Virus record (IMG/VR): IMGVR_UViG_3300045988_183789
Origin: a virus
Length of the DNA stretch: 64,000 nt
Reading direction: 5' to 3' (one strand)
Made by a program: the position numbers and the translations under genes. Below, in pieces: positions 3,324-63,260 of the stretch; position 1 is the first letter of the stretch; every line of letters starts with the position of its first letter. Below the pieces are notes generated by a model. It was not told the DNA's origin. It made no database searches and saw nothing but the letters and a program-made list of their open reading frames with translations.

Positions 3324-4661
3324 ATGAAATGTTTCTTGAAAAGGGCACTCGCGGTAGGGCTTACAGCAGCAACGCTGTGTACAAGCCTTGCGGGATGTAG
3401 AAAGAAAGATGATGGTAGCGTGTCGGATACTACGCCTATCCCGACACCGGCCATTGAGAGTACCCCTGAACCGTCGGCAAATCCGAACATTTATGGCGAC
3501 GTTGACACATCAGGTGGCAACAAAATCCAAAATGGAAAGCTGGTTCTTACGAAAATTGAACCTGCCGAGCCGAACAACTGCGCATCGAACGGCTATATGG
3601 AAGAAAAGAACCTGGATGGTACTTACCGCTATCAGGTTAAGGCGGAAACCGTTGCCGCCAAGAACCTTGTTCCGTATACGGATGCAAACGGAGCGGGTCT
3701 GAAAATCTTCTCTGGTCATACAGTCTATGTGCGTAAGACAGGCTTAGGCGTTGGTGAGATGCCTGAAACTACGGCAGATGACTCCTCCAGTACAGAAGAA
3801 ATTATCACCGATACTACGACATCAACCGATACAAGTTCCGGCTACATCGACGAAAACGGCAACTATGTTGAAGATGCCACTGATAGTAATAGAGCAACCA
3901 CTTCGTCTACGCTTTCTGATACGGACCAGAAGTGCATTGTTTCCGGCGAGGAAGTATTTGACCTTGACAACTACAGCGACGAAATCCAGTATCCTTCTGA
4001 TTTCTCGCAGCTTCGCAAAGAGGGAACATGCGAGCGCCTTTACGTTTACCATTCGAAAGAGGAGTACGAACAGGCTCTCAAAAACCGTAAAAACGGTCAG
4101 GCTATCTTGACAGGTGAAATGGATGCGCCAATCAAGAGCGTCATTTTGAACGGTTCTCTCATTCCGAAGCTCAATTACACCATCAACAGCGACGGCCGCC
4201 TGTGTGTTTCTCTTCGTGCGCTGGCAGAAGCATACGATTCAAACACAGAATATGACGATGTAGAGCATCTGCTCATTGTGCCAATCACCTACGGGGAGCG
4301 CATCTATATCCCAGTCAAAGGCATTCTCCATAACGCCAGTGAGTATTACCAGATTGACAATACAAACAACACCTTTGTGTTTACCAGCAAAAAACCGCCT
4401 GAGATTTGGACTGATACGTTCTCGCTCGCTACCACCAGTGATGTTGTGATGCCTGTCGAAGACATTGCCCGTATCCTTGGCTGGGATTTCTGGTATGGCG
4501 ACAATGTCCTGAGCGTAGTTACTGATTCTCTCGACGACACGAAAGAAGAAAACATTCTGCTTCAGGAGCAGGATGTCGAAGAAATCGAAATTGATTTGAA
4601 CGATTTACCTGATGTCGATAGTACGGAATCTGATTCAGAAAGTGAGGTGAGCGCATCGTGA
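3324..4661 (+). CDS. Secreted lipoprotein of unknown function
   Basis: Signal peptide with lipobox (LTAATLCTSLAGC). Thr/Ser/Asp-rich linker, acidic C-terminus. Confidence 0.6.
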   Translation: MKCFLKRALAVGLTAATLCTSLAGCRKKDDGSVSDTTPIPTPAIESTPEPSANPNIYGDVDTSGGNKIQNGKLVLTKIEPAEPNNCASNGYMEEKNLDGTYRYQVKAETVAAKNLVPYTDANGAGLKIFSGHTVYVRKTGLGVGEMPETTADDSSSTEEIITDTTTSTDTSSGYIDENGNYVEDATDSNRATTSSTLSDTDQKCIVSGEEVFDLDNYSDEIQYPSDFSQLRKEGTCERLYVYHSKEEYEQALKNRKNGQAILTGEMDAPIKSVILNGSLIPKLNYTINSDGRLCVSLRALAEAYDSNTEYDDVEHLLIVPITYGERIYIPVKGILHNASEYYQIDNTNNTFVFTSKKPPEIWTDTFSLATTSDVVMPVEDIARILGWDFWYGDNVLSVVTDSLDDTKEENILLQEQDVEEIEIDLNDLPDVDSTESDSESEVSAS

Positions 4662-6829
4662 CCAAATGGAACGAACTGAAGGTGAAGTTTTCTCTTCTTT
4701 CTAAAGAGGAGAAACTGGTCATCTTGTTCTGCTGCTCGTTTGTTGTTTCTCTTATCCCGGCGGGATTCATTGCGGCGGTATTTGCCGGAGAATGGGATGC
4801 GGGATTTTTCCGTAAACTGGTGCTTAGCATCACAACAGGCTATGGCATTATTTCGACTCTGATTTTCGCCGCTGCTATTACGGTTGTTATCGTACTGCTT
4901 TCTCGAAAAAACACAGACCTTAATTCTGCCAAAGAAGTCGATGACCGTGGCATGATTACCTCCAATGCTGGTACTTACGGAACAGCAGAGTGGATGTCAG
5001 AGGACGAAGCCAAAAAGGTTTATGAGGTTGGCCCTGTTGAAGATGTGACGGGTACAATTCTTGGTCAGTTTACGACCGATGGCGAAGAAGTCATTGCTTT
5101 GCCGTATGAACCGACTGGCAACCGCAACCTTATCCTTATCGGACCTCCGGGCTCTGGCAAATCTTTTGGCTATGTTCGTACTGCTGTATTCCAGTCTATC
5201 GTTCGTGGTGAGTCGGTAGTCGTTACAGACCCCAAAGGCGAAATCCACAATGATATGCGCAAATTGCTCGAAGCAAACGGCTATAAGGTAAAGGTATTCA
5301 ACCTCATCAACCTTGACCTTTCCAATGCCTGGGACTGCGTACAGGAAATCTATGACCCCATTACGGGCAACATTGATGACCAGCGTGTCATTGCGTTCTG
5401 TAAAACCGTTATCGCCAATACAGGCGGTGGCGCGAACAGCAAGGGCGACCCGTTCTGGGAGAGTTCGGAAGAAAACCTGTTCCGCGTCGCGGTTTCCTAC
5501 TGCGCCTATATGCGCGAGACAACTCTTATCAAAATCTATGAGCGCCGCACCAAAGAACTTCTCACGCAGCTGCCGTTCATTTCGGAAGAAGATGGCAAGG
5601 CACTTGTCGAAGCTGTTACAAATCCCGAATCTGCGATGGTGGACCGTCGCCGTGTTGTCGAGTACCTTGCTAAGAATCTCTATGGCGAGGAAGAGGGAGA
5701 GAAGAAGCTGCTGGCTTGGGAGGAAGATGCACCGACCAGCAACATTTCCGACATCTACAACGCTCTGATGCACAACGACCTGAACTCCTGGGAAGAGAAC
5801 TTCAAGAGCGTGCCCATGAACCACCCGGCCGCATCCGCCTGGGCCGTATTCAAAGGCATGGGCGAGCGTGTACAGCCTAACATTGTCGGTGGTCTGAATA
5901 CCCGCTTGCAGCTGTTTATGACCTTTAAGGTTCGTCGTGTTATCAGTAACGATGACATCCGCCTGGCAGACATTGGTGCTGAAAAGACCGCATTGTTCCT
6001 GATTATCTCGGACGATAACGCATCCATGCAGCTGCTTTCGTCTCTGCTTCTGAGCTTCCTGTTTAAGGACCTGAAGGAAGCGTTCGATGCAGTGGGCGGA
6101 GATGGTCGTATCCCTGTAAACGTCATTGCGGACGAGCTGGCAAATACAGGCGTCTGGCCCAACTTTGAGAAGACGATTGCTACCGCTCGTTCTCGTAAGA
6201 TTGCGGTCTCTCTTATCTTGCAGAGCTTGCCGCAGTTGACGCAGTTGTATGGCGAGGAAAACGCCGAAACCATCATTGGCTGCTGCAACACCATGCTGGT
6301 GCTTGGTTGCAACGATAAGTACACGGCCGAGTACATCTCCGACAAGAGCGGCATCGTTACGATTCGTGCCAAGAGCGTGAGCGATTCCAGAGCAAACTCC
6401 GTTGGTTATCGTGGCGCTATGCAGGGGTATTCTCTCAGCGAAGGTGATGGTAAACGCAACCTGATGAACCCTGATGAAGTTCAGCACCTTGGTAAAGAAG
6501 AAATTCTGATTATGACCAATGGTCAGAACCTGCTGAAAGCTAAGCGCTTTGGCTTTATCCATCATCCGCTGTTCTCCGACCCGCACTTTGTTCCGACTCG
6601 CTGGTCTGAACTGCCCAAGACAGTTGACCTTTATCCTGACGCTCGTAAGCATGATGCTCTGGAGTCACTGGTAGGCGACATCCAGCGTCAGAAAGAAGTC
6701 AACACCGAAATTGCGCAGAGACGTTCGGAAGAGCGTATGAATCCTCGTATGAGAAAGAGCGACCTTATCGGGAATGATAAAGTTCCTTCCAAGAAGAACG
6801 CTTTCGCAGATAAGTCCAAAAAGAAATAA
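4658..6829 (+). CDS. Type IV secretion coupling protein (VirD4/TraG family ATPase)
   Basis: N-terminal transmembrane segments. Walker A LILIGPPGSGKS and a hydrophobic-D Walker B. About 720 aa, typical size and domain order for a T4CP. GTG start overlaps the upstream stop. Confidence 0.85.
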   Translation: MTKWNELKVKFSLLSKEEKLVILFCCSFVVSLIPAGFIAAVFAGEWDAGFFRKLVLSITTGYGIISTLIFAAAITVVIVLLSRKNTDLNSAKEVDDRGMITSNAGTYGTAEWMSEDEAKKVYEVGPVEDVTGTILGQFTTDGEEVIALPYEPTGNRNLILIGPPGSGKSFGYVRTAVFQSIVRGESVVVTDPKGEIHNDMRKLLEANGYKVKVFNLINLDLSNAWDCVQEIYDPITGNIDDQRVIAFCKTVIANTGGGANSKGDPFWESSEENLFRVAVSYCAYMRETTLIKIYERRTKELLTQLPFISEEDGKALVEAVTNPESAMVDRRRVVEYLAKNLYGEEEGEKKLLAWEEDAPTSNISDIYNALMHNDLNSWEENFKSVPMNHPAASAWAVFKGMGERVQPNIVGGLNTRLQLFMTFKVRRVISNDDIRLADIGAEKTALFLIISDDNASMQLLSSLLLSFLFKDLKEAFDAVGGDGRIPVNVIADELANTGVWPNFEKTIATARSRKIAVSLILQSLPQLTQLYGEENAETIIGCCNTMLVLGCNDKYTAEYISDKSGIVTIRAKSVSDSRANSVGYRGAMQGYSLSEGDGKRNLMNPDEVQHLGKEEILIMTNGQNLLKAKRFGFIHHPLFSDPHFVPTRWSELPKTVDLYPDARKHDALESLVGDIQRQKEVNTEIAQRRSEERMNPRMRKSDLIGNDKVPSKKNAFADKSKKK

Positions 6830-9798: not shown

Positions 9799-12507
9799 AT
9801 GTTTAGAAAGAAAAATAAGCAGCAAGCTGTTCCGAATGGCGTTGTCGGTGACAGCCTGGAGAGCGTTCGTCTGACAAAGAAAGAACGCGAAGAAATTGCC
9901 AACGCCGAACGTAAGCGTATCGACAAAGAGATGCAGGCCAATGCGGACCGTTATCAAATCGTCCGCAGTACACAGCGCATTATCCCTGTTCAAGACATTT
10001 ATAACGGTGTCATTATTACAAAAGACCACCGTTATGTGAAGATTCTTGAGTTTCGGCCCATCAACTTCGGTTACATGGATGCCGAGACACAGAACCGCAT
10101 CATCTCACTCTTCTATCAGACTTTCAAGGCTGTTCCGGTCAACATCCAGTTCAAGACCTTTGCCCGTAAAGCAGATGTCGAGAAGACGATTGCTACAGTC
10201 ACTTCCTATTATCGGGAAGAGACAAACATCAAGCGCAAGCGGATGCTGAAAGCTTACATCGGCCTGCTTCGTAAGACGGCTTTGTCCGTTGGTATTACGC
10301 GCCGTTTCTTTATCATCATTGAGTTTCAGCGTACCATCAGCAATGACGGCTCTAACTTTGATATGGTGGTTGCGGACCTTAATGCAATGGCGGCTAACGT
10401 ACGCTCCCACATGGAACAGTGCGGCAATATCTTCATCCCGGCTCTGGGCGACAGCAGCCGTAATGAAGATGCCGGTATACACCAGCTGTTCTATCAGATG
10501 CTGAACCGTCGCAAGAGTGAGACGATTACGTTCCACGACCACGTTACGCCCATCATTGAACGCTATACCGAAGCGGATAAGAACGGCGTAAAGACCTCTC
10601 TGAATGCCACGGAATTGATTGCGCCAGACTGGATTGATTTTACCCATTATGACTATATTGTCATTGATGGCAAGTTCTACACCTTTGCCTACATTCCATC
10701 TACTGGATATAATCAGCGGGTGTACGCTGGTTGGATTGCTACTTTCGTAAACGCTGGCGAAGGCGTAGATATGGATGTGTTCTTTGAGCATCAATCCCGT
10801 GAAGCGGTTTACAACAAAATCAGTACCCAGCTTCGTTTGAGCCGCGCTAATGCTATGGAAAGCCATGATACAGACTCCGACTACCATGCTCGTATGGAGA
10901 AAATTTCTTCCAGCGAATATATGTTGAAAGGCTTGTCCAGCGGCGAAGAATTTTATTATATGAGCATCCTCATCACCATTGTTGGTGATAGCTTGGACGA
11001 GTTGGAATACAAGTATAACTCCCTTGAAAAGCGCGTCAAAGGCCAGGGAATGAAGATTCGTCGTGCAAACTTTATGATGGAAGAGTGCTTTGAGTCTGCG
11101 TTGCTGCCTCTGGGTAAGCTCCATAAGGACATCAAGCGCCGGGCACAGCGCAACGTGCTGACCTCTGGTGTGGCATCTTGCTATCCCTTCATTTCCTTTG
11201 AAATGCAGGACCCTGACGGCGTTATGATTGGTACAAACCGCGCCAACAACTCCCTTGTCACTATCGACATGTTCGACACGGATGTTCACGCCAACGCAAA
11301 CGCTGTTATCCTTGGTTCTTCCGGTTATGGTAAGACCTTCACCGCACAGCTTTTTGCATTGCGTCTGTCTGAAATGGATACGCAAGTGTTCGTTATCTCT
11401 CCGCTGAAAGGCTTGGAAGACTACGGCGGCGGATGCAAGGCGGTTGACGGCCAGTTCATCAGTATGGACCCGTCTTCCATCAATAGCATCAACATCATGG
11501 ATATCCGCGTGCCGGACGATGCGGACGCCAAGGAGCTGGACGACTACGAGTCTACTGGTTCTCTGCTGACCAAGAAGATTCACACCATCAAGTCCTTCCT
11601 GCATTTGGTCGTTAAGGATATGACACAGGAAGAGGAACAGCTTATTGATACAAGTCTTTACAGATGCTATAAGGACTTCGGCATCACCAATGATAACGAA
11701 TCGATTCTCGATAAAGAACACGGCGGTTATAAAAAGATGCCTCTGCTGGAAGACCTCCAGAAAGAGATGCAGAATGTTCCTGAACTTCATCGTATCTGCA
11801 ACATCCTGAACCCGCTGATTACCGGTTCAATGGCGTGTTATAATCGCCCTACCAATGTTGACCTGAAAGCCAAATACATTGTATTTGACTTCAACGGCAT
11901 GAAGGGCGCTATCCTTACGATGTCGATGTTTGTTGTTCTGGACTTCGTCTGGACCAAAATCAAAGAAGACCGTACAAAGCGCAAGGCCGTATTTATCGAC
12001 GAGTGCTGGAAGCTGATTGGCACCGACTCAAACGAGATGGCGGCAGAGGACGTTGTGGAAATCTTCCGTACAATTCGTGCTTACGGTGGCTCGGCTTTCG
12101 CTATGACGCAGGACATTTCTCAGTTCTATGAGTATAAGGGCGGCAAGTATGGTAAGGCAATCATCGGTAACGCTGACACCAAAATCATCATGCACCTTAT
12201 CCCGTCTGAAGCGCAGGCATTGCAGTCTGCCATTCAGTTGACTGATGCGGAGATGGAAAACGTCTCCAACTTGCAGCGTGGTCAAGGTCTGGTCTGTGCC
12301 GCTTCTGCCAAGCTGTTCGTTGACTTTGTTGCTGCACCTTATGAAAAGCAGGAAATCACGACAGATGCAAAGAGCTTCTATCTGCAAGAGAAAGCCCTCA
12401 AAGAGAAACAGCACAAAGAAGAGCAGGAGCGCCTGGCGGCTGAAAACGCCAAAGGTGGGTCTGACTCTAACAGCGATGACGAGGATTTGCTGAATGTGAC
12501 ATTCTGA
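9799..12507 (+). CDS. VirB4/TraE/PrgJ-family T4SS ATPase
   Basis: About 900 aa. Walker A ILGSSGYGKTF and Walker B AVFIDECWKL. The size and position after a VirB3-like gene are typical. Confidence 0.85.
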   Translation: MFRKKNKQQAVPNGVVGDSLESVRLTKKEREEIANAERKRIDKEMQANADRYQIVRSTQRIIPVQDIYNGVIITKDHRYVKILEFRPINFGYMDAETQNRIISLFYQTFKAVPVNIQFKTFARKADVEKTIATVTSYYREETNIKRKRMLKAYIGLLRKTALSVGITRRFFIIIEFQRTISNDGSNFDMVVADLNAMAANVRSHMEQCGNIFIPALGDSSRNEDAGIHQLFYQMLNRRKSETITFHDHVTPIIERYTEADKNGVKTSLNATELIAPDWIDFTHYDYIVIDGKFYTFAYIPSTGYNQRVYAGWIATFVNAGEGVDMDVFFEHQSREAVYNKISTQLRLSRANAMESHDTDSDYHARMEKISSSEYMLKGLSSGEEFYYMSILITIVGDSLDELEYKYNSLEKRVKGQGMKIRRANFMMEECFESALLPLGKLHKDIKRRAQRNVLTSGVASCYPFISFEMQDPDGVMIGTNRANNSLVTIDMFDTDVHANANAVILGSSGYGKTFTAQLFALRLSEMDTQVFVISPLKGLEDYGGGCKAVDGQFISMDPSSINSINIMDIRVPDDADAKELDDYESTGSLLTKKIHTIKSFLHLVVKDMTQEEEQLIDTSLYRCYKDFGITNDNESILDKEHGGYKKMPLLEDLQKEMQNVPELHRICNILNPLITGSMACYNRPTNVDLKAKYIVFDFNGMKGAILTMSMFVVLDFVWTKIKEDRTKRKAVFIDECWKLIGTDSNEMAAEDVVEIFRTIRAYGGSAFAMTQDISQFYEYKGGKYGKAIIGNADTKIIMHLIPSEAQALQSAIQLTDAEMENVSNLQRGQGLVCAASAKLFVDFVAAPYEKQEITTDAKSFYLQEKALKEKQHKEEQERLAAENAKGGSDSNSDDEDLLNVTF

Positions 12508-35618: not shown

Positions 35619-36506
35619 ATGACTTCTGAACAGGTTCGTATCGCACTCACCGCCAATGCCGTTACTCGCTCGACCCGTACCGGCTTCGATTTTGAGGACC
35701 CCTGCGGCAAGACGCTGGACGAATTCACCAAGGGCGCTACGCTTCAGTGCCTGCGTGTTGCCCAGCAGATGCAGCAGCCTGGCTTTGAAAAGGTGCTGGC
35801 TGCCCAGATTTTCCCGTGCTACACCATCGCCAACTGGAACCAGACCAAGGTCATCTATGATTTCGGCAAGGATTTTCTGGAGCTGCTGATGGATACCGAT
35901 GACCTCACCATCCATCGCGAGGTGCTGGAGCGCCTGCCGTTCAAGAACTTCTATGTGCCTCTGTACAACAGCGTAGACTACTGCGGCATGTTCGTACATA
36001 TCGAGTTTGATACAAAGACGGATGACACCTTCGTTGGCATCGTCCTCGTGGGCCCGGTCCAGAACGAAAAGGAGAACTTCGCGTTCCTGTCTCTGCCCGC
36101 TTGGATTAAGGAGGGTCAGAGCCTGACGGAGGCGACTCGCAGCACGAAACAGTACATCGAAAAAGCATCTTCGACTCGCGATAAAGATGACATCACTATT
36201 CCTGAAACGCTGGACGCTATCCCGTCTGTTTACGGCGAAGGCACGCCCTATGTCCGCCTCGCAATGCTGTGTGCCTACTACCTTGCCAGCAAAGGCGCAG
36301 AGATTCGTCTGGACAGTCCGAAAAAGGACGAGCGTCCTGTCTTTACGTTCAAGGGCCAGACCAAGAAAGTCAATATCAAGACCTTCGTGGTGGGCCATTA
36401 TCTGATGGAGCGTTACAAGAAGGAAGCGAACGGTAAGGCTCCCACCTGGCGGCACTATTGGTGCGGCAATGGCCGCGAGCGCCGTGAGTGCAAGTTCTCC
36501 TTTTGA
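35619..36506 (+). CDS. Hypothetical protein
   Basis: RBS GGAGGA. Confidence 0.45.
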   Translation: MTSEQVRIALTANAVTRSTRTGFDFEDPCGKTLDEFTKGATLQCLRVAQQMQQPGFEKVLAAQIFPCYTIANWNQTKVIYDFGKDFLELLMDTDDLTIHREVLERLPFKNFYVPLYNSVDYCGMFVHIEFDTKTDDTFVGIVLVGPVQNEKENFAFLSLPAWIKEGQSLTEATRSTKQYIEKASSTRDKDDITIPETLDAIPSVYGEGTPYVRLAMLCAYYLASKGAEIRLDSPKKDERPVFTFKGQTKKVNIKTFVVGHYLMERYKKEANGKAPTWRHYWCGNGRERRECKFSF

Positions 36507-53092: not shown

Positions 53093-54250
53093 ATGCAAAG
53101 CAAAAACACATTCTTGCGGAGAGCAGCGGCAGCGATTGCGGCACTCTTCACCCTCAGCTTCGCAGGCTGCGGTCAGACCCCGATTGATTCGGGTAGTCTT
53201 CCTGTATCCGGGGTCGTCTCAGAAAGTCCTGTCTCTGACAGCGAGCAGACGGCTGGCGTAACGGAAGACGGCAGCTTTACTATCCACTTCATTGATGTGG
53301 GGCAGGCGGACTCTGCTCTTGTTACCTGTGATGGGCATTCGATGCTCATTGACGGTGGCAATGTTGATGATTCTGACCTCGTATATTCTGTTCTGGAACG
53401 TGAGACAGACGGACATCTGGATTATGTTGTTGGCACGCACGCCCATGAAGACCATATCGGAGGTCTTTCCGGTGCATTCGAAGCCGTGACGGCTGATGTC
53501 ACGTATTGCCCTGTCACAGAGTACGACAGTAAAGCTTTTCGGAACTTCAAGCAGCGAGCGGAAGAAAGAGGCAACGGCCTTACGATTCCGTCGGTAGGGG
53601 ATACATTCTCCCTTGGCGATGCCGAAGTGACTGTTATCGCCGTGAACTCAGTGCCGGATGATACCAACAATACCTCCATTGTCCTACGCATCGTATATGG
53701 AGAAACCTCATTCTTGTTTACGGGTGATGCAGAAGAGCCTGCCGAAGATGTTATCCTACAGTCTGGACAAGACATCCAATCTACTGTTCTGAAGGTAGGG
53801 CATCATGGTTCTCGAACCTCCACATCCGAAGCGTTCCTCGACACAGTGAATCCAGCCTATGCTGTTATTTCCTGTGGCAAGGACAACAGCTATGGTCATC
53901 CACACGACATCACTTTGGCAAAGCTCCAGAGCAAAGACATTGAGGTTTTCAGAACTGACGAGATGGGAGACATCTACTGCACATCGGACGGTAAGGACGT
54001 CACTTTCACTTATGGCGAATATCACCAGGCGGCAGAAAGCACTACCACCGATACAGTCGAGGTCGAGGAGTCACAGCAAAAGGATACGACGGTCAGTACC
54101 TATGTCCTGAACACAAACTCTATGAAATTTCATAAGCCTGACTGCTCCGCCGTAGCTCAAATGAGCGATGCAAACCGCAAAGACTATACAGGTTCCCGCG
54201 ATGACCTAATCGAGCAGGGCTATACACCTTGCGGGTATTGCAAGCCGTAA
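53093..54250 (+). CDS. Metallo-beta-lactamase-fold lipoprotein with a Cys-rich C-terminal tail
   Basis: RBS AAAGGAGA. Lipobox LSFAGC. MBL motif GTHAHEDHIGG. C-terminal C...C..C. Confidence 0.65.
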   Translation: MQSKNTFLRRAAAAIAALFTLSFAGCGQTPIDSGSLPVSGVVSESPVSDSEQTAGVTEDGSFTIHFIDVGQADSALVTCDGHSMLIDGGNVDDSDLVYSVLERETDGHLDYVVGTHAHEDHIGGLSGAFEAVTADVTYCPVTEYDSKAFRNFKQRAEERGNGLTIPSVGDTFSLGDAEVTVIAVNSVPDDTNNTSIVLRIVYGETSFLFTGDAEEPAEDVILQSGQDIQSTVLKVGHHGSRTSTSEAFLDTVNPAYAVISCGKDNSYGHPHDITLAKLQSKDIEVFRTDEMGDIYCTSDGKDVTFTYGEYHQAAESTTTDTVEVEESQQKDTTVSTYVLNTNSMKFHKPDCSAVAQMSDANRKDYTGSRDDLIEQGYTPCGYCKP

Positions 54251-54579: not shown

Positions 54580-54912
54580 ATGACTAAAATTTTTACTATC
54601 GCAGCAAACGAAATCATCGGCCCATTCAGCACCGAGACGACCGTGTTGCAGTTTGAGTATGACTCTGAAAAAGCGTATGACGTTCTCACGCAAGTACGCA
54701 ACGCCGTAAAGTCTTATCTGGATACCGAAGAAGGCAAAAAGACGCTGCGACTCAACAGTGGCTACTTCAACTGGGGTGATGCGGCCGAGATTCCTGATGG
54801 CTTCTATGAGTCGTTCGGCCTTAAAAAGCTGGACGCGCCGGTTGCTGATTTGACCGTGGACTTCAACGAAGACCTGACGGCAGATGAGATTTCCGATGAG
54901 GAGGGCTACTGA
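54580..54912 (+). CDS. Hypothetical acidic protein
   Basis: RBS AAAGGAG. Confidence 0.45.
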   Translation: MTKIFTIAANEIIGPFSTETTVLQFEYDSEKAYDVLTQVRNAVKSYLDTEEGKKTLRLNSGYFNWGDAAEIPDGFYESFGLKKLDAPVADLTVDFNEDLTADEISDEEGY

Positions 54913-56345
54913 TGGCTCAGTTCAATGACATGCTTGCTCAAATCGGTGCAATGCTATCTAAGAAAGAAAATGAGCCGTTTTCCTATGAAGAGCTTGCATC
55001 GATGCTGAAAACAAGCCCTGATGCTCTTAAAACCTTTGAGGATGTCTACAAAACCCAAGTGCTGGAAAGTGGGACACTGTCTGACAATCTTCTCCAGTGG
55101 GATACCGCAACCGTAAAGGCAATGCTCGATAAGAGCGCGCCTTTTACGAAAGAGCTGGACAATCTCATTGACCAAATCGTTGCCGAGCTGATGGATGACA
55201 CCAGACTGTACATCTATGAGCCGAAACGCGGTGGTTACTACGTTCGATATTCCGCAAACCAGCATATCCTTCCGCCGGTAACGAACGAAGACCTCCAGAA
55301 GTTCCCGGAAGAACTTCGGCCACAACTGACCGGCAATCTGATGAAGATTGACATTTCGGAGCCGTCTTACAAGGTGCTGCTCAGCCACTACAAGGCGTAT
55401 CTCGATGCGAGAAGCGACCGAAACAAAGCGATGCAGTATCACATGTTCCGCCAGGGCCTCGACATTCTGGACCTCGATGACATCACATATCAGATGCTTG
55501 AAATGAATCCGAACACGATGAGCTACTGGCTGCCGCCACTGGTTGCTGCCTTGGACGGCAACAAGTTCTTCAAGGTGCCGGAGACAAAACTCTTGCATGT
55601 GCCCATCACGATGCTCCAACTCACGAGACTCGGCTTTGAGACGCTTAATCCCGTGACGAAAGCGATTGTGAACCGTTACTGCGAGAGAATCTTTCATCTG
55701 AATGAAGATGGCGACTATTTCATCAAAACTGGCACCTATTCCTCCAAGTACGAGTTCCGCAATGCCCATGTCCATGAACCTCAAGAGGTCCGTGAGATGG
55801 GCGAGTATTTCTTGTTTTTGAACCATCTGACCTGCTCTATGGCAGCACCCGGCAATGGGCATTGCTTCTACGGGGCAAATACGACCAACGAGTGGGTCGT
55901 CAGAGAGTATATCAAAGACAAGGAAGGGAACCCGACTATCTATAACGGTCTGCCGCTGCACACTGAATACCGCGTGTTTGTGGACTTCGATGCTAAGACG
56001 ATTCTCGGCGTCAGTCCGTACTGGCGCAGCGATGTGATGAAGGGGAAATTCCAGGAAGTGAGCAGTCCACAGGAACGGCACGACTACGTCATCTACCAGA
56101 TGCACGAGGATGTGCTGGAGAAGCACTACCAGGAGAGCGTTCAGGCTGTTCTGGATGAACTGAAGAAGGTCATCCCACACGTAGAGTTGACCGGGCAGTG
56201 GAGTGTTGACGTGATGCGCAACGGTGATGATTACTACATCATCGACATGGCGCTTGCTGAGAACTCTGCGCTGAGCGATTGCGTGCCTAAGAATCTGCTT
56301 CGTGCTTATCCGCAGCAGTGGCTGCCGCAAAGTCCGACGATGTAA
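54912..56345 (+). CDS. Hypothetical protein, possible ATP-grasp-like C-terminal region
   Basis: RBS GAGGAGGG. C-terminal WSVDVMRNGDDYYIIDMALAEN resembles the ATP-grasp Mg-binding strand (E-x-N). Confidence 0.4.
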   Translation: MAQFNDMLAQIGAMLSKKENEPFSYEELASMLKTSPDALKTFEDVYKTQVLESGTLSDNLLQWDTATVKAMLDKSAPFTKELDNLIDQIVAELMDDTRLYIYEPKRGGYYVRYSANQHILPPVTNEDLQKFPEELRPQLTGNLMKIDISEPSYKVLLSHYKAYLDARSDRNKAMQYHMFRQGLDILDLDDITYQMLEMNPNTMSYWLPPLVAALDGNKFFKVPETKLLHVPITMLQLTRLGFETLNPVTKAIVNRYCERIFHLNEDGDYFIKTGTYSSKYEFRNAHVHEPQEVREMGEYFLFLNHLTCSMAAPGNGHCFYGANTTNEWVVREYIKDKEGNPTIYNGLPLHTEYRVFVDFDAKTILGVSPYWRSDVMKGKFQEVSSPQERHDYVIYQMHEDVLEKHYQESVQAVLDELKKVIPHVELTGQWSVDVMRNGDDYYIIDMALAENSALSDCVPKNLLRAYPQQWLPQSPTM

Positions 56346-56369
56346 TTTTTCAAAAAGGAGAATACCACC

Positions 56370-56879
56370 ATGAGCAAAACCGTTATTCTGATGGGCAAAT
56401 CCATGCCGACCAAAGATGTCGCTGAGTTTCTTTACACGGAGACTCGCGACAAAAACTACCAGGCTGAGACCGGCTGTGCATACGCCAAGTTCAACAGTTG
56501 CAAGATTGCTGAACCCGGCACCAAATGGGCGGAGTTGACTCCTTCCCAGAAGATGCAGGCCATGTCTATGTCCCTGTTCCAGATGCTGGGCAATGGTGAT
56601 GACAGGGGAGAACCTATCCTCATCAAGACCGCCAACACCACCAAAGAAGTCTGGTGCCCGTTTTACGCAGACAAGGTCGCCATCGAAAGCGCGAATGTCT
56701 TCGAGCGTGTTTACGCAGAGGTGAAAGCTGCTTATGAGGAAAACAGCGCTTTTGCCAAATTCGACACCATGAACCACGAGGAGAAGATGTTCGAAATCTC
56801 GTTGTATGTCATGCACAACTTCGAGAACATCCTCAAGAAAATTGAAGCCATTCCCGGTGTACAAGCCGGAAAATACTAA
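56370..56879 (+). CDS. Hypothetical protein
   Basis: RBS AAAAGGAGA. Confidence 0.45.
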   Translation: MSKTVILMGKSMPTKDVAEFLYTETRDKNYQAETGCAYAKFNSCKIAEPGTKWAELTPSQKMQAMSMSLFQMLGNGDDRGEPILIKTANTTKEVWCPFYADKVAIESANVFERVYAEVKAAYEENSAFAKFDTMNHEEKMFEISLYVMHNFENILKKIEAIPGVQAGKY

Positions 56880-57586: not shown

Positions 57587-58111
57587 TTGATTGATAGAGA
57601 AGCAATGGCAGAAAGGAATCGACTCATTGTCGAGGACTTGAAGAGTGGTATGTCTATCAAAGACGCAGCCGCAAAGCATCATGTATCAACCCATATCTGC
57701 TATAGAGTATCTCGTGAAGAGAGTCGTAACGAACGCTCTATGGACTTCCACAAATGGAAGAAACAACGAGACAAAGAAATCGCTCGCAAGTACAGCAAGG
57801 GTGTAACGGCCGTTGAGCTGGCGAAAGAATACAACATGAACCGCGCAACGATTTATAGCGTCATCAAGCAGGTAGACCCGAAATATACCTGCCAGCGGGA
57901 TTCTGATGTGATGACAAAGGCAAAGAAAGAACGCCTGAAAAGAGAGGAACGGTATATCCAAGCAGTCAGAGAGAACCCGCAGAAGTCAATTCAGGCACTT
58001 GCTAAGGAGTATGGTTTCTGTACCACATGTGGATACGACATCATGCACAAAGCTGGAATCCACCGTAAAAGGGGAAGAAAGAAAACAAAGAAGGCGGCGA
58101 AGGAACAATGA
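57587..58111 (+). CDS. Protein with three tandem HTH repeats, paralog of the gene at 48415
   Basis: TTG start 7 nt after AAGGAGGA. Three repeats of (L/I)...Y..G.S...(A/L)AK.(Y/H)....I..(V/I). Confidence 0.5.
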   Translation: MIDREAMAERNRLIVEDLKSGMSIKDAAAKHHVSTHICYRVSREESRNERSMDFHKWKKQRDKEIARKYSKGVTAVELAKEYNMNRATIYSVIKQVDPKYTCQRDSDVMTKAKKERLKREERYIQAVRENPQKSIQALAKEYGFCTTCGYDIMHKAGIHRKRGRKKTKKAAKEQ

Positions 58112-58785
58112 GAAAGCCGCTTTTGATTATTCCGGCGCTTGCTGTTGCCTTGACTGCCTGCTATCCCGTCAGCACGCTGCCCGCCGATTTCCCTGTGGCA
58201 ACGGCTGAAAGCAGCGAAACGCTAGGCCTTCCAGCTCAAACCAGTATGGAAACAGAACCGGTGCGAGGCGAGAACAATAACCTTATCGCTCTCGGCGACT
58301 GGGGAACAGTTTCAAATGGCTCTTTGACCGATGGGCGATGGCATGACATTGAAATGCGCATCACTAAAATCACTACCGAAACAGAAAATGAAGATTACAT
58401 CAGCAACACCATTGCGCTCAGTAATTCTCTTTCTGTACTGCGAACTGAAGAATCAGCTCTTGATAAGCTGCGAGATGGCATCGAAGACCCGGAACTCGTA
58501 GTGGTGGATTACGAAGTGAAGCTGCCGGAAGATTACCCATGTGACGGCAATGCGGATGTGAGTCTTTGCGTGGTTGATGATGCAGGTGAGCATCAGATTA
58601 TCAAACTGCTGACTACAGCTGACAGCGATATGACGCCTGGTCTGACATACGCAAAGCGCGGCATCTATGTTCGCACAAAGTGCGATACCAACTACACATT
58701 CAAAAGCGTTCGGTATCTGAACGAAGCTGATATTGAGGCGAGAGCCGCGAGAGCTGACACAGACACCTACTTTGCAAATAAATAA
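58108..58785 (+). CDS. Lipoprotein
   Basis: Signal peptide with lipobox LTAC. Confidence 0.55.
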   Translation: MRKPLLIIPALAVALTACYPVSTLPADFPVATAESSETLGLPAQTSMETEPVRGENNNLIALGDWGTVSNGSLTDGRWHDIEMRITKITTETENEDYISNTIALSNSLSVLRTEESALDKLRDGIEDPELVVVDYEVKLPEDYPCDGNADVSLCVVDDAGEHQIIKLLTTADSDMTPGLTYAKRGIYVRTKCDTNYTFKSVRYLNEADIEARAARADTDTYFANK

Positions 58786-58842
58786 CAAAGAATCAAGACC
58801 TGCCGTTTGGTGGGTCTTTTCATTTATAGAGGTAAATAAACC

Positions 58843-59754
58843 ATGAATGATAACAACCGCATGCTCCTTCGCTATGTAGCAGAAGGCGACATTCGCAAAG
58901 CACAGATGCAAGCAAAAATCATTCTGAACAGTATCACCGCTGCGAGGGATGAGCAATTCAAGACGAACTGCCTGGCAAAGCTCAATAATGCTGAACCGCG
59001 ATTCATTGAATTGCCGTTCAACATGCAGGGTCTTTTGGTGGCAGAAGATGTATCTGATTTCCCGGAGCAGAGATTCCTGATTCGTGAATCGGAGAAAGCA
59101 GTCATCGAAAAGATTCTCAAAACGAGAAAAGCGTCCCTCAAACTCAAAGAAATGGGCGTTCACTATACCAGTTCTTTGCTCCTGAGCGGTGAGCCTGGAA
59201 CTGGTAAAACCGAACTGGCAAGATACATTGCCCACAAAGCAGACCTGCCGTTCGTATATCTCAAATTTTCCGGTCTTATCAGCTCGGCTCTTGGCAAGAC
59301 ACAGCAGAACATTGGTCTGGTCTTTGACTATGCTAGACGCAGCCCCTGTGTGTTGTGCCTCGACGAAATCGATGCTATCGGTATGAAGCGCGGCGGCAGA
59401 GACGATGTAGCAGAGATGAGCCGCGTGACGATTGCTCTGATGCAGGAACTTGACCGGCTGCCCAATGACGTTATTCTTATCGGAACCACGAACAGGGAAG
59501 ACCAGCTTGACGCTGCACTGTTCCGTCGGTTCAGCTTCCTTCATCGTGTTCGCATGCTGGATACTCAGTCTGCGCATGACTTATGCGAGAAGTTCTTCAT
59601 TTCGGTTGGCTATACAGCGAGCAAGAAAGAAATTGAAGACCTGCTCTCTCACATTGACCACAATTATACGCCCAGCAATGTAACGAAAGCTTGCACGGAC
59701 CATATTGTGAGTTGGGTCATCGAACAACAGGAAAAGGAGGGCCAGGATGCGTGA
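58843..59754 (+). CDS. AAA+ ATPase
   Basis: Walker A GEPGTGKTE, Walker B VLCLDEIDA, sensor-1 IGTTN and an Arg finger region. Confidence 0.7.
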   Translation: MNDNNRMLLRYVAEGDIRKAQMQAKIILNSITAARDEQFKTNCLAKLNNAEPRFIELPFNMQGLLVAEDVSDFPEQRFLIRESEKAVIEKILKTRKASLKLKEMGVHYTSSLLLSGEPGTGKTELARYIAHKADLPFVYLKFSGLISSALGKTQQNIGLVFDYARRSPCVLCLDEIDAIGMKRGGRDDVAEMSRVTIALMQELDRLPNDVILIGTTNREDQLDAALFRRFSFLHRVRMLDTQSAHDLCEKFFISVGYTASKKEIEDLLSHIDHNYTPSNVTKACTDHIVSWVIEQQEKEGQDA

Positions 59755-60487
59755 ATTTGAGATTAAGTTCTATGAACCCCGTGGCACAGTGGCAGAGGAA
59801 CATCCTGAAATTGCTGCCATGTGGCACCCGACTGCCAATGACTGTGGTCCTGATGAAATCACGTGCGGAAGCGGTCGTCGCATTGCCTTGATTTGTCCTC
59901 GGTGTGGATACGGCGAAAATGGGGAATGGCGGCCGGTGCTTTCTTCTGTCTGTCGTACAAGAGGCGGCTGTCCGGTTTGTGCTGGACGAATCGTGGTCAA
60001 AGGCGTGAATGATGTAGCCACAGTTCATCATGAAATTGCCGAACAGTGGCATCCAACACTAAATACCATTAAGCCCGACCAAATCACATCCGGCAGCGGT
60101 CTGCATGTCTATCTTGTCTGCAAGACCTGCGGCTATGGTCAAAATGGCGAGTGGCATCCGCTCCTGGCTTTCGCTTGCGGTAGTGGCGTGAATCATACCG
60201 GCTGTCCGCAATGCGCCAGATTAAGGACTTCTCATAGCAGAATGAAGCGGATTCGTAAATGCACGACGAAGCCTATCATCAGCGTTGGATACCCTCAGAT
60301 TGCAGCTATGTGGCATCCGACCGCCAATAAGTTTCGGCCCGATGAACTGACCGCCGGAAGCGGTGAACGCATTGCTTTGGTATGTCCCGATTGCGGCTAT
60401 GGCAAGGACGGAGAATGGACGCCGTTGCTCTTTACCGTATGCAAGTATGGTCCTAAGTGCCCCGCCTGCCGCAAAGTGCGGAGGTGA
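59747..60487 (+). CDS. Protein with three tandem zinc-ribbon repeats (DUF4379-like WHPT...N motif)
   Basis: Three ~80-aa repeats, each (M/Q)WHPT.N ... GSG ... C..CGYG.(N/D)GEW ... C..C. RBS AAGGAGGG. Confidence 0.6.
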   Translation: MREFEIKFYEPRGTVAEEHPEIAAMWHPTANDCGPDEITCGSGRRIALICPRCGYGENGEWRPVLSSVCRTRGGCPVCAGRIVVKGVNDVATVHHEIAEQWHPTLNTIKPDQITSGSGLHVYLVCKTCGYGQNGEWHPLLAFACGSGVNHTGCPQCARLRTSHSRMKRIRKCTTKPIISVGYPQIAAMWHPTANKFRPDELTAGSGERIALVCPDCGYGKDGEWTPLLFTVCKYGPKCPACRKVRR

Positions 60488-60493
60488 TACCTC

Positions 60494-61168
60494 TTGGCTT
60501 ACAATATGAAAGACCAGCTTGCAGTCGGAAAACTTGGAGAACAGGTGGCGATTGACTATGTAAAAAAGAGCTGCGAATTGGGAAGGTTGAGCTTTGAGAG
60601 CTACGAAGATGTGCGAAACATCAAAGCGTATCAAGAACAGGATATTGACTTCCTGATTCATCGCAAGGATGGCCGCACAGTGACACTCGACGCCAAAACG
60701 GATACATACACTACCGGCAACATCTTCCTGGAACAGGCCGTTGACTCTTATCTATTTGACGCGAATGGCAATGTCATCAACTGCAATTCTATCACCAATG
60801 AGTCAACACTTCATCACTCGGATGGGTGGCTATACAAAAACGCCAACTGCATCTTCTATTACTTCTCAAGCACCAAAATGCTATATGTATTTCATCGAGT
60901 AAATGCAGCGCTCTATGCCACAGAACTGCTCGATGCGGGATACAAATTAAAGCAGGAAAAACGCCCCTTTCCTCGTGCTGCTGAAAACCACGAAAAAGGC
61001 CGACCTCTTACGAAATACTACGGCATAGGGCTGCTTTTACCGGCCGAGCAGATGCTGTATTCTGAACGGATGCAGGGACACATGTGGAAGTGGAGAGTCG
61101 AACAAGATAAGACTGGACATTTCAGGTTCATTCCTGTAAAAACGCGTAAGTTTGTTAAGAATCTATGA
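60494..61168 (+). CDS. PD-(D/E)XK-nuclease-like protein
   Basis: TTG start after GGAGGTGA. GEQVAIDY ... DIDFLIHR ... VTLDAKTD fits the E ... D ... (D/E)xK architecture. Confidence 0.45.
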   Translation: MAYNMKDQLAVGKLGEQVAIDYVKKSCELGRLSFESYEDVRNIKAYQEQDIDFLIHRKDGRTVTLDAKTDTYTTGNIFLEQAVDSYLFDANGNVINCNSITNESTLHHSDGWLYKNANCIFYYFSSTKMLYVFHRVNAALYATELLDAGYKLKQEKRPFPRAAENHEKGRPLTKYYGIGLLLPAEQMLYSERMQGHMWKWRVEQDKTGHFRFIPVKTRKFVKNL

Positions 61169-61244: not shown

Positions 61245-61688
61245 ATGAATGTTGTTGGTGTGGTTACGCTCGGAAAGCTCATTGAAGCGCATCGAGACAG
61301 TGACGAACAGAAGTTCAAGACCTACGTTGAGTTCATTGCCGAAGCCTATGAACAGCAGGGAAATGACCGTGGCGCTCGCATCATCCGCAACTCCTATACA
61401 GGCGGCGGCAAGGATACCGCAAAGGTCATCCTGGACGCAGCCTCCCCCGACGAACAGGATGTGGCGGTCTACTACGAGACCGGTTACTATGAGCTGGATG
61501 TCATGGGTTCCGGTGGGTCTTATCATGGTGTCACTACGACAAACTCCGCCGCTGAGGCCATGCGCCGACTTGATACCAATGCCGCCAACTATATCCAGCG
61601 CGTGACGCTGTATAAAAAGGACGGTAAGGTTACGAAAAAAGAAGTGGCCGAGTACGACCCGATAGCAAAGGAATGGAGAAACATCTGA
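61245..61688 (+). CDS. Hypothetical protein
   Basis: RBS GAGAGGAG. Confidence 0.45.
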   Translation: MNVVGVVTLGKLIEAHRDSDEQKFKTYVEFIAEAYEQQGNDRGARIIRNSYTGGGKDTAKVILDAASPDEQDVAVYYETGYYELDVMGSGGSYHGVTTTNSAAEAMRRLDTNAANYIQRVTLYKKDGKVTKKEVAEYDPIAKEWRNI

Positions 61689-62454: not shown

Positions 62455-62530
62455 GCTTCTGTAGCTCAGATGGCAGAGCGGCTGTTTTGTAAGCAGCGGG
62501 TCGCAGGTTCGAGCCCTGTCGGAAGCTCCA
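62455..62530 (+). tRNA. tRNA-Thr (anticodon TGT)
   Basis: Cloverleaf folded by hand. Acceptor GCTTCTG / CGGAAGC, anticodon loop TTTGTAA, T-loop GGTTCGAGCCC, encoded CCA. Confidence 0.8.
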
Positions 62531-62631
62531 CTGGTTTTCATCGTTCCTCCGTTGAAATCCAAAATCCCGCTTGATGAATCGTAACTTCTTGATACGATGC
62601 TATACACACATCTTGCGGGCTATGTCACCAT

Positions 62632-62694
62632 AAGACAGCCTCCTCGCGGCGGTGACGGTAACACGGGTATTGAGCTCCCCGTGGCAAATGTCTT
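62632..62694 (+). other. Structured-element family copy 4
   Basis: AAGACAGCCTCCTCGCGGCGG ... GGCAAATGTCTT. Confidence 0.4.
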
Positions 62695-62700
62695 ATTTCT

Positions 62701-62776
62701 GGGTCGTTAGCTCAGTCGGCAGAGCGCTTGACTGTTAATCAAGATGTCACAGGTTCGAGCCCTGTACGACCCTCCA
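62701..62776 (+). tRNA. tRNA-Asn (anticodon GTT)
   Basis: Acceptor GGGTCGT / ACGACCC, anticodon loop CTGTTAA, T-loop GGTTCGAGCCC, encoded CCA. Confidence 0.8.
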
Positions 62777-62961
62777 TATACCGAATATCAAGTGTTGTAA
62801 GTGTCATCCCGACACACATCACAACTACTATAGTGCTACATACCCTCACTTGATAGACGGTAATAACAACCTCGGAGAATGTGCATTGTAGCTGCTTGCA
62901 GCACATCATACTACACCAGTATAGTTCTACACATCCTTGCGCAATCTCCGAGAATCCCTCA

Positions 62962-63029
62962 CAAGACAGCCTCCGCGTGGCGAGGGATGGACAACGCAAG
63001 TTTTGAAGGTTCTTGCGGCCAATGTCTTG
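62962..63029 (+). other. Structured-element family copy 5
   Basis: CAAGACAGCCTCCGCGTGGCGAGGGATGGACAAC ... GGCCAATGTCTTG. Confidence 0.4.
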
Positions 63030-63077
63030 TTATTGACACTTTGAAGGTTCTTGCGGCCAATGTCTTGTTATTGACAC
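63002..63077. repeat. 38-bp perfect tandem duplication abutting the tRNA-Met 5' end
   Basis: TTTGAAGGTTCTTGCGGCCAATGTCTTGTTATTGACAC x2. Confidence 0.8.
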
Positions 63078-63149
63078 GGGGTATAGCAATGGTAGCTTAC
63101 CAGCCTCATACGCTGGTGGTTGTGGGTTCAAGTCCCATCCCCGTATCCA
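63075..63149 (+). tRNA. tRNA-Met (anticodon CAT). C1-A72 mismatch suggests an initiator-type tRNA
   Basis: Acceptor CACGGGG / CCCCGTA with a C1/A72 mismatch, anticodon loop CTCATAC, T-loop GGTTCAAGTCC, encoded CCA. The anticodon stem lacks three consecutive G-C pairs, so initiator versus elongator is ambiguous. Confidence 0.7.
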
Positions 63150-63183
63150 TCGTCTCGGCCGCGACGCTAAATCGGTCATATAT

Positions 63184-63260
63184 GGCTCGTTAGTTCAGAT
63201 GGTTAGAACGCCAGCCTGTCACGCTGGAGGTCGCCGGTTCGAGTCCGGCACGAGTCGCCA
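63184..63260 (+). tRNA. tRNA-Asp (anticodon GTC)
   Basis: Acceptor GGCTCGT / ACGAGTC, anticodon loop CTGTCAC, T-loop GGTTCGAGTCC, encoded CCA. Confidence 0.8.

What the first reader, a model, noticed from the sequence alone, without database searches (positions are those of the whole stretch)
58843..61168. Three-gene module of AAA+ ATPase, triple zinc-ribbon protein and PD-(D/E)XK nuclease: candidate defence or abortive-infection system
The genes are tightly linked and overlap at 59747-59754. The first encodes a clear AAA+ ATPase with Walker A and B. The second is a 246-aa protein made only of three tandem ~80-aa zinc-ribbon repeats of the WHPT.N...C..C...C..C type, a domain often fused to restriction or defence nucleases. 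The third is a putative PD-(D/E)XK nuclease. An ATPase, a nucleic-acid-binding zinc-ribbon scaffold and a nuclease together are typical of anti-phage or anti-plasmid modules carried as cargo on conjugative elements. I do not recognise this exact trio as a named system.
Basis: inference. Interest (0 to 1): 0.65.

Follow-up and report, generated by a model that had tools for sequence, protein, structure and literature searches.

The report
Orphan IetA-like ATPase beside plasmid nuclease
Three real, neighbouring genes on a large gut-bacterial conjugative plasmid-like element (an IetA-like ATPase, a triple zinc-ribbon protein and a DNA-cutting enzyme) look like a defence system, but comparison with relatives shows they are separable cargo genes, not one conserved three-part machine.

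Summary

The "three-gene system" reading is only partly supported.
- P1's closest known family is IetA, the antitoxin ATPase of the IetAS toxin-antitoxin and defence pair. No IetS protease is present.
- P2 is missing in two of five sister lineages, and where present it always sits next to P3.
- P1-P3 adjacency is confined to one clade of related elements.
- About 29 other P1-family loci lack an adjacent P3. They sit instead among orphan methyltransferases, SSB and AcrVA2-like genes.
- About 27 other P3-family loci lack P1.

Best reading: two units sit side by side in a variable accessory region. One is an orphan IetA-type ATPase, possibly anti-defence. The other is a homing- or restriction-like endonuclease unit, P3 with or without P2. 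An IetA-plus-nuclease effector swap remains possible (about 0.2).

The parts
58795..58818 (+). Terminator-like hairpin (10 bp stem followed by a T-rich tail) just upstream of P1. It suggests P1 starts a new transcription unit.
   Evidence: scan; sequence
58843..59754 (+). P1: 303-aa classical-clade AAA+ ATPase, IetA-like. It has an N-terminal helical region of about 100 aa and one AAA module. Walker A is G116-T123 (nt 59188-59211) and Walker B D174/E175 (nt 59362-59367). The pore-loop position reads S-A-L-G, with no aromatic residue.
59747..60487 (+). P2: 246-aa protein made of three DUF4379 treble-clef zinc-ribbon repeats (aa 22-84, 97-162 and 185-246; nt 59810-59998, 60035-60232 and 60299-60484). 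It is a facultative gene and is always immediately upstream of P3 when present.
60494..61168 (+). P3: 224-aa PD-(D/E)XK-fold nuclease of an uncharacterised family of about 1065 clusters. The putative catalytic residues are E16 (nt 60539-60541), D52 (60647-60649) and D66-x-K68 (60689-60697).
57587..58111 (+). Mor/HTH_28-like DNA-binding protein. Paralogues of it lie upstream of P1 in all five sister lineages, and between P1 and P2 in L034. This is context and not shown to be part of a system.

Best explanation
The three ORFs are real, probably co-transcribed cargo genes in a variable accessory region of a roughly 210-250 kb conjugative plasmid-like element of gut Clostridia. They are two separable units, not one obligate three-part system.

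Unit 1 is P1, an orphan IetA-type classical AAA+ ATPase. It has intact ATP-binding and hydrolysis motifs and is presumably a hexameric protein remodeller (inferred). Its family is conserved across many clostridial plasmids and prophage-like elements with no fixed partner gene, typically among orphan DNA methyltransferases, SSB, AcrVA2-like and homing-endonuclease genes. By homology with IetA, the antitoxin of IetAS, it most plausibly acts in trans on a protein target, as an orphan antitoxin or anti-defence factor (inferred).

Unit 2 is P3, a Mg-dependent DNA endonuclease of the PD-(D/E)XK fold (fold and motif shown, activity inferred). In some lineages it is preceded by P2, whose three zinc ribbons are of the kind used as DNA-binding modules in homing endonucleases (inferred from the literature). 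P3 with or without P2 therefore resembles a split free-standing homing or restriction-like endonuclease. It has been vertically inherited next to P1 in one lineage.
For: P1 identity: PADLOC IetA 7.5e-61, phrog_3757 2e-66, 34% identity to the IetA of a true IetA+S8-peptidase pair in Paenibacillus phage Yerffej. No IetS is found in the window or in any P1-family locus. P1 has no fixed partner. The downstream genes in 23 genome loci are heterogeneous, including methyltransferases, GIY-YIG, MazG-like and a phosphatase. The 268-kb C. sporogenes plasmid pRSJ11_1 has P1 alone. L197 has five orphan MTases and SSB upstream and GIY-YIG downstream. L199 has an AcrVA2-like gene directly downstream and T4SS genes nearby. 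L201 has Dam, HNH and HTH genes. L203 and L204 are similar. Leading-region islands of conjugative plasmids are enriched in MTases, SSBs, anti-CRISPRs and orphan antitoxins (PMC11541004). P3-linked P1s form a single clade, and the P1 and P3 divergences are congruent, which indicates vertical inheritance. In L199 a full-length P3 orthologue lies 3.8 kb from P1 on the opposite strand. P3-family members elsewhere lack P1 and sit in replication or recombination modules; in L138 one lies between two pieces of a split DNA polymerase gene. The top structural match of P3 is the homing endonuclease I-Ssp6803I. P2 is patchy and always abuts P3, not P1. DUF4379/CapR-like repeats are described as DNA-binding modules of phage homing endonucleases (PMC12350094). 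Mosaic dS between the three genes indicates recombination between them.
Against: Within the clade, P1-P3 is the most stable adjacency in a region where other genes come and go. Where P2 is absent the gap is only about 30-40 nt. P3 occupies the position that IetS holds in IetAS. P3 shows no sign of recent mobility within the clade, which is atypical for a selfish homing endonuclease. No biochemical or genetic data exist for any of the three families. The anti-defence role of P1 rests only on homology and neighbourhood.
Confidence: 0.5

Rival explanations
1. P1 and P3 form an IetAS-like two-gene toxin-antitoxin or abortive-infection module in which a PD-(D/E)XK nuclease has replaced the S8 protease as toxin or effector. 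The IetA-like ATPase holds it in check or activates it. P2 is an optional DNA-binding accessory.
For: IetA is the antitoxin ATPase and the downstream IetS is the toxin (PMC13069673). P1 is IetA-like. P3 lies downstream on the same strand in all five sister lineages across P1 58-99% and P3 34-94% identity, while flanking genes vary. A terminator-like hairpin precedes P1. IetAS was first described as a plasmid-stability system, and this element is plasmid-like.
Against: The adjacency is confined to one vertically related clade. Genes are inserted between P1 and P3, giving up to 1.9 kb of separation in L034. In L199 the two genes are on opposite strands 3.8 kb apart. About 28 other P1-family loci have no P3 and no common effector. 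The P3 family elsewhere has no AAA+ partner. In L205 a deletion removed the catalytic half of P3 together with the P1 C-terminus. P1 lacks the C-terminal HTH seen in the Yerffej IetA.
Confidence: 0.22
2. One reading: a three-component defence system of the McrBC or restriction type. P1 is the motor or regulator, P2 is the nucleic-acid sensor and P3 is the nuclease, together protecting the host or plasmid from phages or rival plasmids.
For: The domain logic fits (ATPase, zinc ribbons, nuclease). The three genes are tightly packed with an overlap. All three are under purifying selection. The element is conjugative.
Against: P2 is absent from two of five sister lineages, including L007, whose P1 is 88% identical to that of the P2-bearing L034. 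P2 and P3 have no PADLOC hit. P1 is a classical PF00004 AAA+, not a McrB-type one. The trio is not found outside this element family.
Confidence: 0.05
3. P3 is a structure-specific DNA junction resolvase of the RecU/Hjc type that serves plasmid recombination or processing of branched replication intermediates. It is unrelated to P1, and P2 is an unrelated DNA-binding protein.
Against: The best structural match is a homing endonuclease. Sequence identity to the resolvases is only 7-11%. The family member in L138 lies between the pieces of a split polymerase gene, which is a homing-endonuclease-like position. P3 is lost by deletion in L205 and absent from most related elements.
Confidence: 0.12

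Closest known systems
IetA of the IetAS (Gao_Iet) toxin-antitoxin and anti-phage system
   Same: P1 belongs to the same AAA+ subfamily by HMM (PADLOC 7.5e-61 over HMM positions 39-308 of 374). It is 34% identical over 241 aa to a phage IetA that has an S8 peptidase partner. The two share the ISSxLGKTxQN pore-loop region and the Walker and arginine-finger motifs.
   Different: There is no IetS protease in the window or in any P1-family locus. P1 scores 189 bits against the NCBIfam IteA cut-off of 510. It is about 70 aa shorter and lacks the C-terminal HTH-like tail of the Yerffej IetA. Its downstream gene is variable.
PD-(D/E)XK nucleases I-Ssp6803I (homing endonuclease, 2ost), RecU (1y1o) and Hjc (1gef)
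   Different: Identity is only 7-11%. There is no sequence-level hit to any PDB chain or any Pfam or PHROG functional family for P3 itself. P3 has an extra C-terminal beta-rich region (aa about 150-215). Its substrate is unknown.
Phage homing endonucleases with CapR/DUF4379/DUF723 repeats plus an EDxHD/Vsr nuclease domain (PMC12350094)
   Same: Three tandem zinc-ribbon repeats of about 60-80 aa sit immediately upstream of a restriction-fold nuclease. P2 is present in some close relatives and absent in others.
   Different: Here the repeats and the nuclease are separate ORFs. They share a frame only in the window's own subclade. The nuclease belongs to a different PD-(D/E)XK family. P3 exists without P2 in sister lineages and shows vertical inheritance, not mobility.
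McrBC (AAA+ motor plus PD-(D/E)XK nuclease restriction system)
   Same: It is also an AAA+ protein encoded next to a PD-(D/E)XK nuclease.

Membership tests
IetAS defence / toxin-antitoxin system | IetA-type AAA+ ATPase | tested here: inconclusive
   PADLOC IetA models match at 7.5e-61 and 8.2e-53. The NCBIfam IteA equivalog gives 189.4 bits against a cut-off of 510. P1 is a related subfamily, not an equivalog.
IetAS defence / toxin-antitoxin system | Adjacent IetS subtilisin-like (S8) serine protease | tested here: not met
   tblastn with the Yerffej IetS finds nothing in the window (best E 5) or in loci L001-L114. It finds IetS only in the distant loci L116-L118.
IetAS defence / toxin-antitoxin system | Antitoxin or anti-phage activity | not testable with these tools
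   This requires expression and phage-challenge experiments.
Classical-clade AAA+ ATPase (PF00004) | Walker A, Walker B, sensor-1 and second-region-of-homology arginine fingers | tested here: met
   Pfam AAA 101.9 bits. G116/K122/T123, D174/E175, N217 and R228/R229 are invariant in 19 homologues. The best PDB matches are CDC48/p97 D2 domains.
Classical-clade AAA+ ATPase (PF00004) | Aromatic pore-loop-1 residue used for substrate threading | tested here: not met
   The position reads S148-A-L150-G151, with S148, L150 and G151 invariant across the family. IetA of Yerffej has SYLG at this position.
DUF4379 treble-clef zinc finger (PF14311) | HMM match above the gathering score, with four Cys ligands per repeat | tested here: met
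   90.4 bits against a cut-off of 24.5, in 3 stretches. CxxC and CPxC pairs occur at residues 50/75, 125/153 and 213/238.
PD-(D/E)XK nuclease superfamily | Restriction-endonuclease-like core fold | tested here: met
PD-(D/E)XK nuclease superfamily | Catalytic E / D / (D/E)xK residues | tested here: met
   D52 and K68 are invariant, and E16 and the acidic residue at position 66 (E in most relatives, D in the window) are at least 90% conserved in 67 sequences. All four are conserved in 6 close homologues.
PD-(D/E)XK nuclease superfamily | Nuclease activity | not testable with these tools
   This requires biochemistry.
Free-standing homing endonuclease gene | Sporadic presence or absence among close relatives at a fixed site next to, or inside, a conserved gene | tested here: inconclusive
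   Met for P2 and for a P3-family member between the pieces of a split DNA polymerase gene in L138. Not met for P3 within this clade, where its tree is congruent with that of P1. GIY-YIG genes occupy the same site downstream of P1 in L094, L097, L114 and L197.
McrBC-type restriction | McrB-type (AAA_5) GTPase motor with a McrC partner | tested here: not met
   P1 fits PF00004 best (101.9 bits) and AAA_5 only weakly (34 bits). No McrC appears among the structural matches of P3.

The most novel reading that the evidence does not exclude
P1 represents a large family of orphan IetA-type 'antitoxin' AAA+ ATPases. More than 1300 clusters matched, although only 8000 candidates were scored. In this reading, conjugative plasmids and prophages of gut Clostridia carry these ATPases in anti-defence islands to disarm IetAS-like protease or other toxin-based immunity in the recipient cell. 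That would make P1 an ATP-driven anti-defence protein of a kind not yet described. The adjacent P3 with or without P2 would be an unrelated endonuclease cassette.
Probability: 0.15. Interest if true: 0.7.

Novelty: new variant of a known kind. Interest (0 to 1): 0.35.

Why it matters
If the best reading is right, the locus shows how a plausible ATPase-sensor-nuclease trio on a mobile element can be a chance juxtaposition in a fast-changing accessory region. It also flags two large uncharacterised families worth testing. One is the orphan IetA-like ATPases, which recur next to methyltransferases, SSB and AcrVA2-like genes and are candidate anti-defence or orphan-antitoxin factors. The other is a PD-(D/E)XK nuclease family of about 1000 clusters on plasmids and phages. 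If the rival reading is right, it would be the first IetAS variant with a nuclease effector. The mechanism of IetAS itself is still unknown (PMC13069673), so either outcome would bear on it.

Tried and rejected
1. I first read the element as a jumbo phage. The reasons were a weak PHROG terminase hit for 9799-12507 (1.8e-10), the tRNA cluster and the IMG/VR 'UViG' labels. I rejected this when Pfam showed TraG/VirB4-like and T4SS coupling proteins and the closest cultured P1 turned out to be on a C. sporogenes plasmid.
2. The first AF2 model of P3, built on 6 sequences, was poor (pLDDT 54). I redid it with 67 sequences.
3. The afdb50 fold library was unavailable.
4. The search for related loci with the distant P3 alignment failed because it had no conserved stretch. 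I replaced it with a degenerate DNA motif for KTDTYxTGNxF.
5. ORF 61245-61688 has a PADLOC hit to the IetA N-terminus (3.9e-4). BLASTP does not support it (E 0.66).
6. P0041 (402 aa) looked like a P1-P3 Rosetta-stone fusion. It is an in-frame deletion joining P1 residues about 1-268 to the C-terminal half of P3, and it removes the catalytic residues.
7. P2 and P3 share a frame in the window and are separated by a single TGA, so I considered read-through. In L018 and L034 the two genes are in different frames, so this is coincidental.
8. I scanned fusion partners of larger P3-family proteins. Only one VWA_CoxE fusion turned up, which is uninformative.
9. No P3 match exists in the phage or plasmid reference collections.

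Full report
OBSERVATION. The three ORFs exist exactly as described. P1 is 58843-59754 (303 aa), P2 is 59747-60487 (246 aa) and P3 is 60494-61168 (224 aa, TTG start). All are on the + strand. P1 and P2 overlap by 8 nt (ATGCGTGA), and P2 has a strong AAGGAGG site upstream. P3 starts 6 nt after the P2 stop and has GGAGG 10 nt upstream. A 10-bp terminator-like hairpin (58795-58818) precedes P1. Against close variants, all three genes show dN/dS of 0.03-0.10. They are therefore functional protein-coding genes and not chance ORFs.

WHAT EACH PROTEIN IS.
- P1 is a single-module classical AAA+ ATPase: Pfam AAA 4.7e-29, with CDC48/p97 D2 as the best PDB relatives. Walker A (G116-T123), Walker B (D174/E175), sensor-1 N217 and the arginine fingers R228/R229 are invariant in 19 homologues. 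The pore-loop position reads S-A-L-G, so it lacks the usual aromatic residue.
- The nearest named family for P1 is IetA: PADLOC 7.5e-61, and NCBIfam 'IteA' at 189 bits, far below the 510-bit equivalog cut-off. P1 also matches phrog_3757, of unknown function, at 2e-66.
- P2 is three DUF4379 treble-clef zinc ribbons and nothing else. The repeats start at aa 22, 97 and 185, each with CxxC...CPxC, and are about 50-60% identical to one another.
- P3 hits no family in Pfam, PADLOC, PHROGs or NCBIfam. A profile search found 1065 related clusters. With 67 of them as the alignment, AlphaFold gave pLDDT 92.6.

CONTEXT. I first took the element for a jumbo phage, because of a weak terminase PHROG hit, four tRNAs and IMG/VR labels. 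That was wrong. ORF 4658-6829 is a T4SS coupling protein (PF02534, 3.3e-49) and 9799-12507 is a TraG/VirB4-type P-loop protein. An M23 peptidase, a Y-family polymerase, a flotillin, an HNH gene and a sortase are also present. Identical P1 is found on human-gut metagenome contigs of 110-246 kb. The closest cultured P1 (41.5% identity) is on the 268-kb Clostridium sporogenes plasmid pRSJ11_1, which is typed MPF_T and carries ParM.

IS THE TRIO CONSERVED? I collected 80 viral-collection loci, 41 genome loci and further look-ups, and scanned them with profiles of P1 and P3 and with the P2 sequence.
- Five sister lineages carry both P1 and P3. The window type has P1-P2-P3. The L018 type has P1, a two-repeat P2, then P3. 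The L034 type has P1, a 410-aa multi-HTH gene, P2, then P3, which puts 1.9 kb between P1 and P3. The L007 and L078 types have P1-P3 with no P2.
- These P1s form one clade. The pairwise divergences of P1 (58-88%) and P3 (34-80%) are congruent. This is vertical co-inheritance on one syntenic backbone, not independent co-transfer.
- P2 is dispensable. L007 lacks it although its P1 is 88% identical to that of L034, which has it. Where P2 is present it always abuts P3, not P1.
- Outside the clade I examined 23 genome loci with P1 at 41-55% identity, the C. sporogenes plasmid, and loci L197-L204. None has an adjacent P3 or any P2.
- The one exception is L199/L200. A full-length P3 orthologue lies 3.8 kb from P1 on the opposite strand, in a separate gene block.
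- In L205 an in-frame deletion joins P1 to the C-terminal half of P3 and removes the nuclease catalytic residues.
- Conversely, P3-family genes in about 27 other viral or metagenomic loci of at least 5 kb have no P1 nearby.
- Within the clade, however, P1-P3 is the most stable adjacency in a region where other genes come and go. That is the main argument for a functional link.

WHERE THE TWO FAMILIES LIVE.
- The genes downstream of P1 in other elements are heterogeneous. They include SAM and N6 methyltransferases, GIY-YIG endonucleases, a metallophosphatase, a MazG-like protein and an ATP-grasp-like protein.
- Pfam-annotated neighbourhoods are telling. L197 has five orphan DNA methyltransferases and an SSB directly upstream of P1, and GIY-YIG, HNH and PAPS-reductase genes downstream. 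L199 has an AcrVA2-like gene directly downstream and T4SS genes nearby. L201 has Dam, DUF488, HNH and HTH genes. L203 has sortase and pilin genes, TrmD and SSB.
- This is the gene content reported for anti-defence islands in plasmid leading regions, which are also enriched in orphan antitoxins (PMC11541004).
- IetA is the antitoxin and IetS the protease toxin of IetAS. [quoted passage not shown] A bona fide IetA plus S8-peptidase pair occurs in Paenibacillus phage Yerffej. P1 is 34% identical to that IetA but lacks its HTH-like C-terminal tail. No IetS exists in the window or in any P1-family locus.
- P3-family members in ordinary phage contigs sit in replication or recombination modules. In L138 one lies between two pieces of a split DNA polymerase gene, and in L147 one lies beside a UvsX-like recombinase and a Cas4-like exonuclease.
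- DUF4379/CapR-like repeats have been described as DNA-binding modules placed upstream of a Vsr-type nuclease domain in phage homing endonucleases (PMC12350094).

INTERPRETATION. The best-supported reading (about 0.5) is that two units sit side by side.
- Unit (i) is an orphan IetA-type AAA+ ATPase that works without a fixed neighbour. Its location and homology make an orphan-antitoxin or anti-defence role the most plausible one. This role is inferred, not shown.
- Unit (ii) is a PD-(D/E)XK endonuclease, optionally equipped with a zinc-ribbon DNA-binding partner. It resembles a split free-standing homing or restriction-like nuclease that has become a stable resident next to P1 in one lineage.
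- The main rival (about 0.22) is an IetAS-like pair in which the nuclease replaces the protease. It is favoured by gene order and by the clade-wide adjacency. It is weakened by the insertions, by the opposite-strand arrangement in L199, and by the independence of both families elsewhere.
- The full three-component defence model gets about 0.05, because P2 is dispensable.
- A RecU/Hjc-type resolvase role for P3 gets about 0.12.

COMPARISON AND NOVELTY. P1 is a new, shorter, IetS-less variant of the IetA kind, and it fails the IetAS membership test for lack of the protease. P3 is a new family within a well-known fold. P2 is an ordinary DUF4379 array. None of the three has been characterised experimentally. 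The 'system' as framed is not a conserved entity, so interest is moderate (0.35). The most novel reading not excluded is that this large orphan IetA-like family is an ATP-driven anti-defence factor of plasmids and phages (probability about 0.15).

LIMITS. Neighbourhood sampling covered tens of loci, not the whole families. The ORF calling in my scripts was crude. Neither oriT nor the leading region was located. No protein-protein prediction or experiment was possible.

Noticed in passing
window 4658-6829 and 9799-12507; related contigs in IMG/VR (L011-L090): The window encodes a T4SS coupling protein and a TraG/VirB4-like ATPase, yet many near-identical contigs are catalogued as viral genomes (UViGs) in IMG/VR. 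PHROGs also gave a weak 'terminase' hit for the VirB4-like ORF. The element may be a misclassified conjugative megaplasmid, or possibly a phage-plasmid.
   Followed up: partly
window 62455-63260: Four tRNA genes (Thr-TGT, Asn-GTT, Met-CAT, Asp-GTC) lie just downstream of the trio on a plasmid-like element. The array is conserved in position in sister lineages, followed by an HD_4-domain gene and a 961-aa ORF.
   Followed up: no
window 35619-36506: This 295-aa ORF is 28% identical (tblastn E 9e-30) to the L199 protein that carries a precomputed AcrVA2-like Pfam hit and sits directly downstream of that element's P1 homologue. The window ORF itself had no Pfam hit at E<=1e-3. It is a possible anti-CRISPR-like gene.
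   Followed up: partly
window 54912-56345: A 477-aa protein of unknown function (phrog_12834, 3.8e-69) recurs within a few kb of P1 homologues even in distant loci (L095, L096; directly downstream in L101). Beyond this clade it co-occurs with P1 more widely than P3 does.
   Followed up: partly
window 53093-54250: A lipoprotein-like metallo-beta-lactamase-fold protein has a Cys-rich C-terminus. Its precomputed Pfam list includes a 'faint' Anti-Pycsar_Apyc1 hit. The signal-peptide-like N-terminus argues against a cytoplasmic Apyc1 role.
   Followed up: no
L205 8001-9209 (protein P0041): An in-frame deletion fuses P1 (aa about 1-268) to the C-terminal half of P3 and removes the nuclease active site. 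It is seen on contigs up to 291 kb. A MoxR-like AAA and a VWA_CoxE gene lie 4-5 kb downstream, and a separate cluster (P0150) fuses a P3 N-terminus to VWA_CoxE. This suggests recurrent deletions in the region.
   Followed up: partly
window 58843-61168 versus L012, L075: Synonymous divergence is mosaic across the three genes. Against L012 it is P1 dS 0.13, P2 0.00 and P3 0.42. Against L075 it is P1 0.04, P2 0.22 and P3 0.19. This indicates recombination breakpoints between the genes among close variants.
   Followed up: no
window 54954-56864 (-) and 58453-59577 (-): Very long antisense ORFs (636 aa and 374 aa) lie opposite the real + strand genes, including P1. They are probably non-coding, and they misled my greedy ORF picker.
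   Followed up: no
L133, L134, L142, L160, L165, L174, L180, L188 and others: Many P3-family hits on 150-218 kb contigs appear as recurrent short ORFs (71-72, 90 and 113 aa) that cover only part of the domain. These may be elements with reassigned stop codons, or conserved truncated forms.
   Followed up: no
window 61245-61688: This 147-aa ORF has a borderline PADLOC hit to the N-terminal 50 residues of IetA (3.9e-4), which pairwise BLASTP does not confirm. The gene recurs downstream of P3 in L018 and L078, and 5 kb away in L007.
   Followed up: yes
P0037, P0044, P0054: A few P1 homologues of 385-411 aa carry an HTH_28 domain fused to the AAA module, and Mor/HTH_28 genes lie upstream of P1 throughout the clade. 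These could be real fusions or read-through and assembly artefacts.
   Followed up: no
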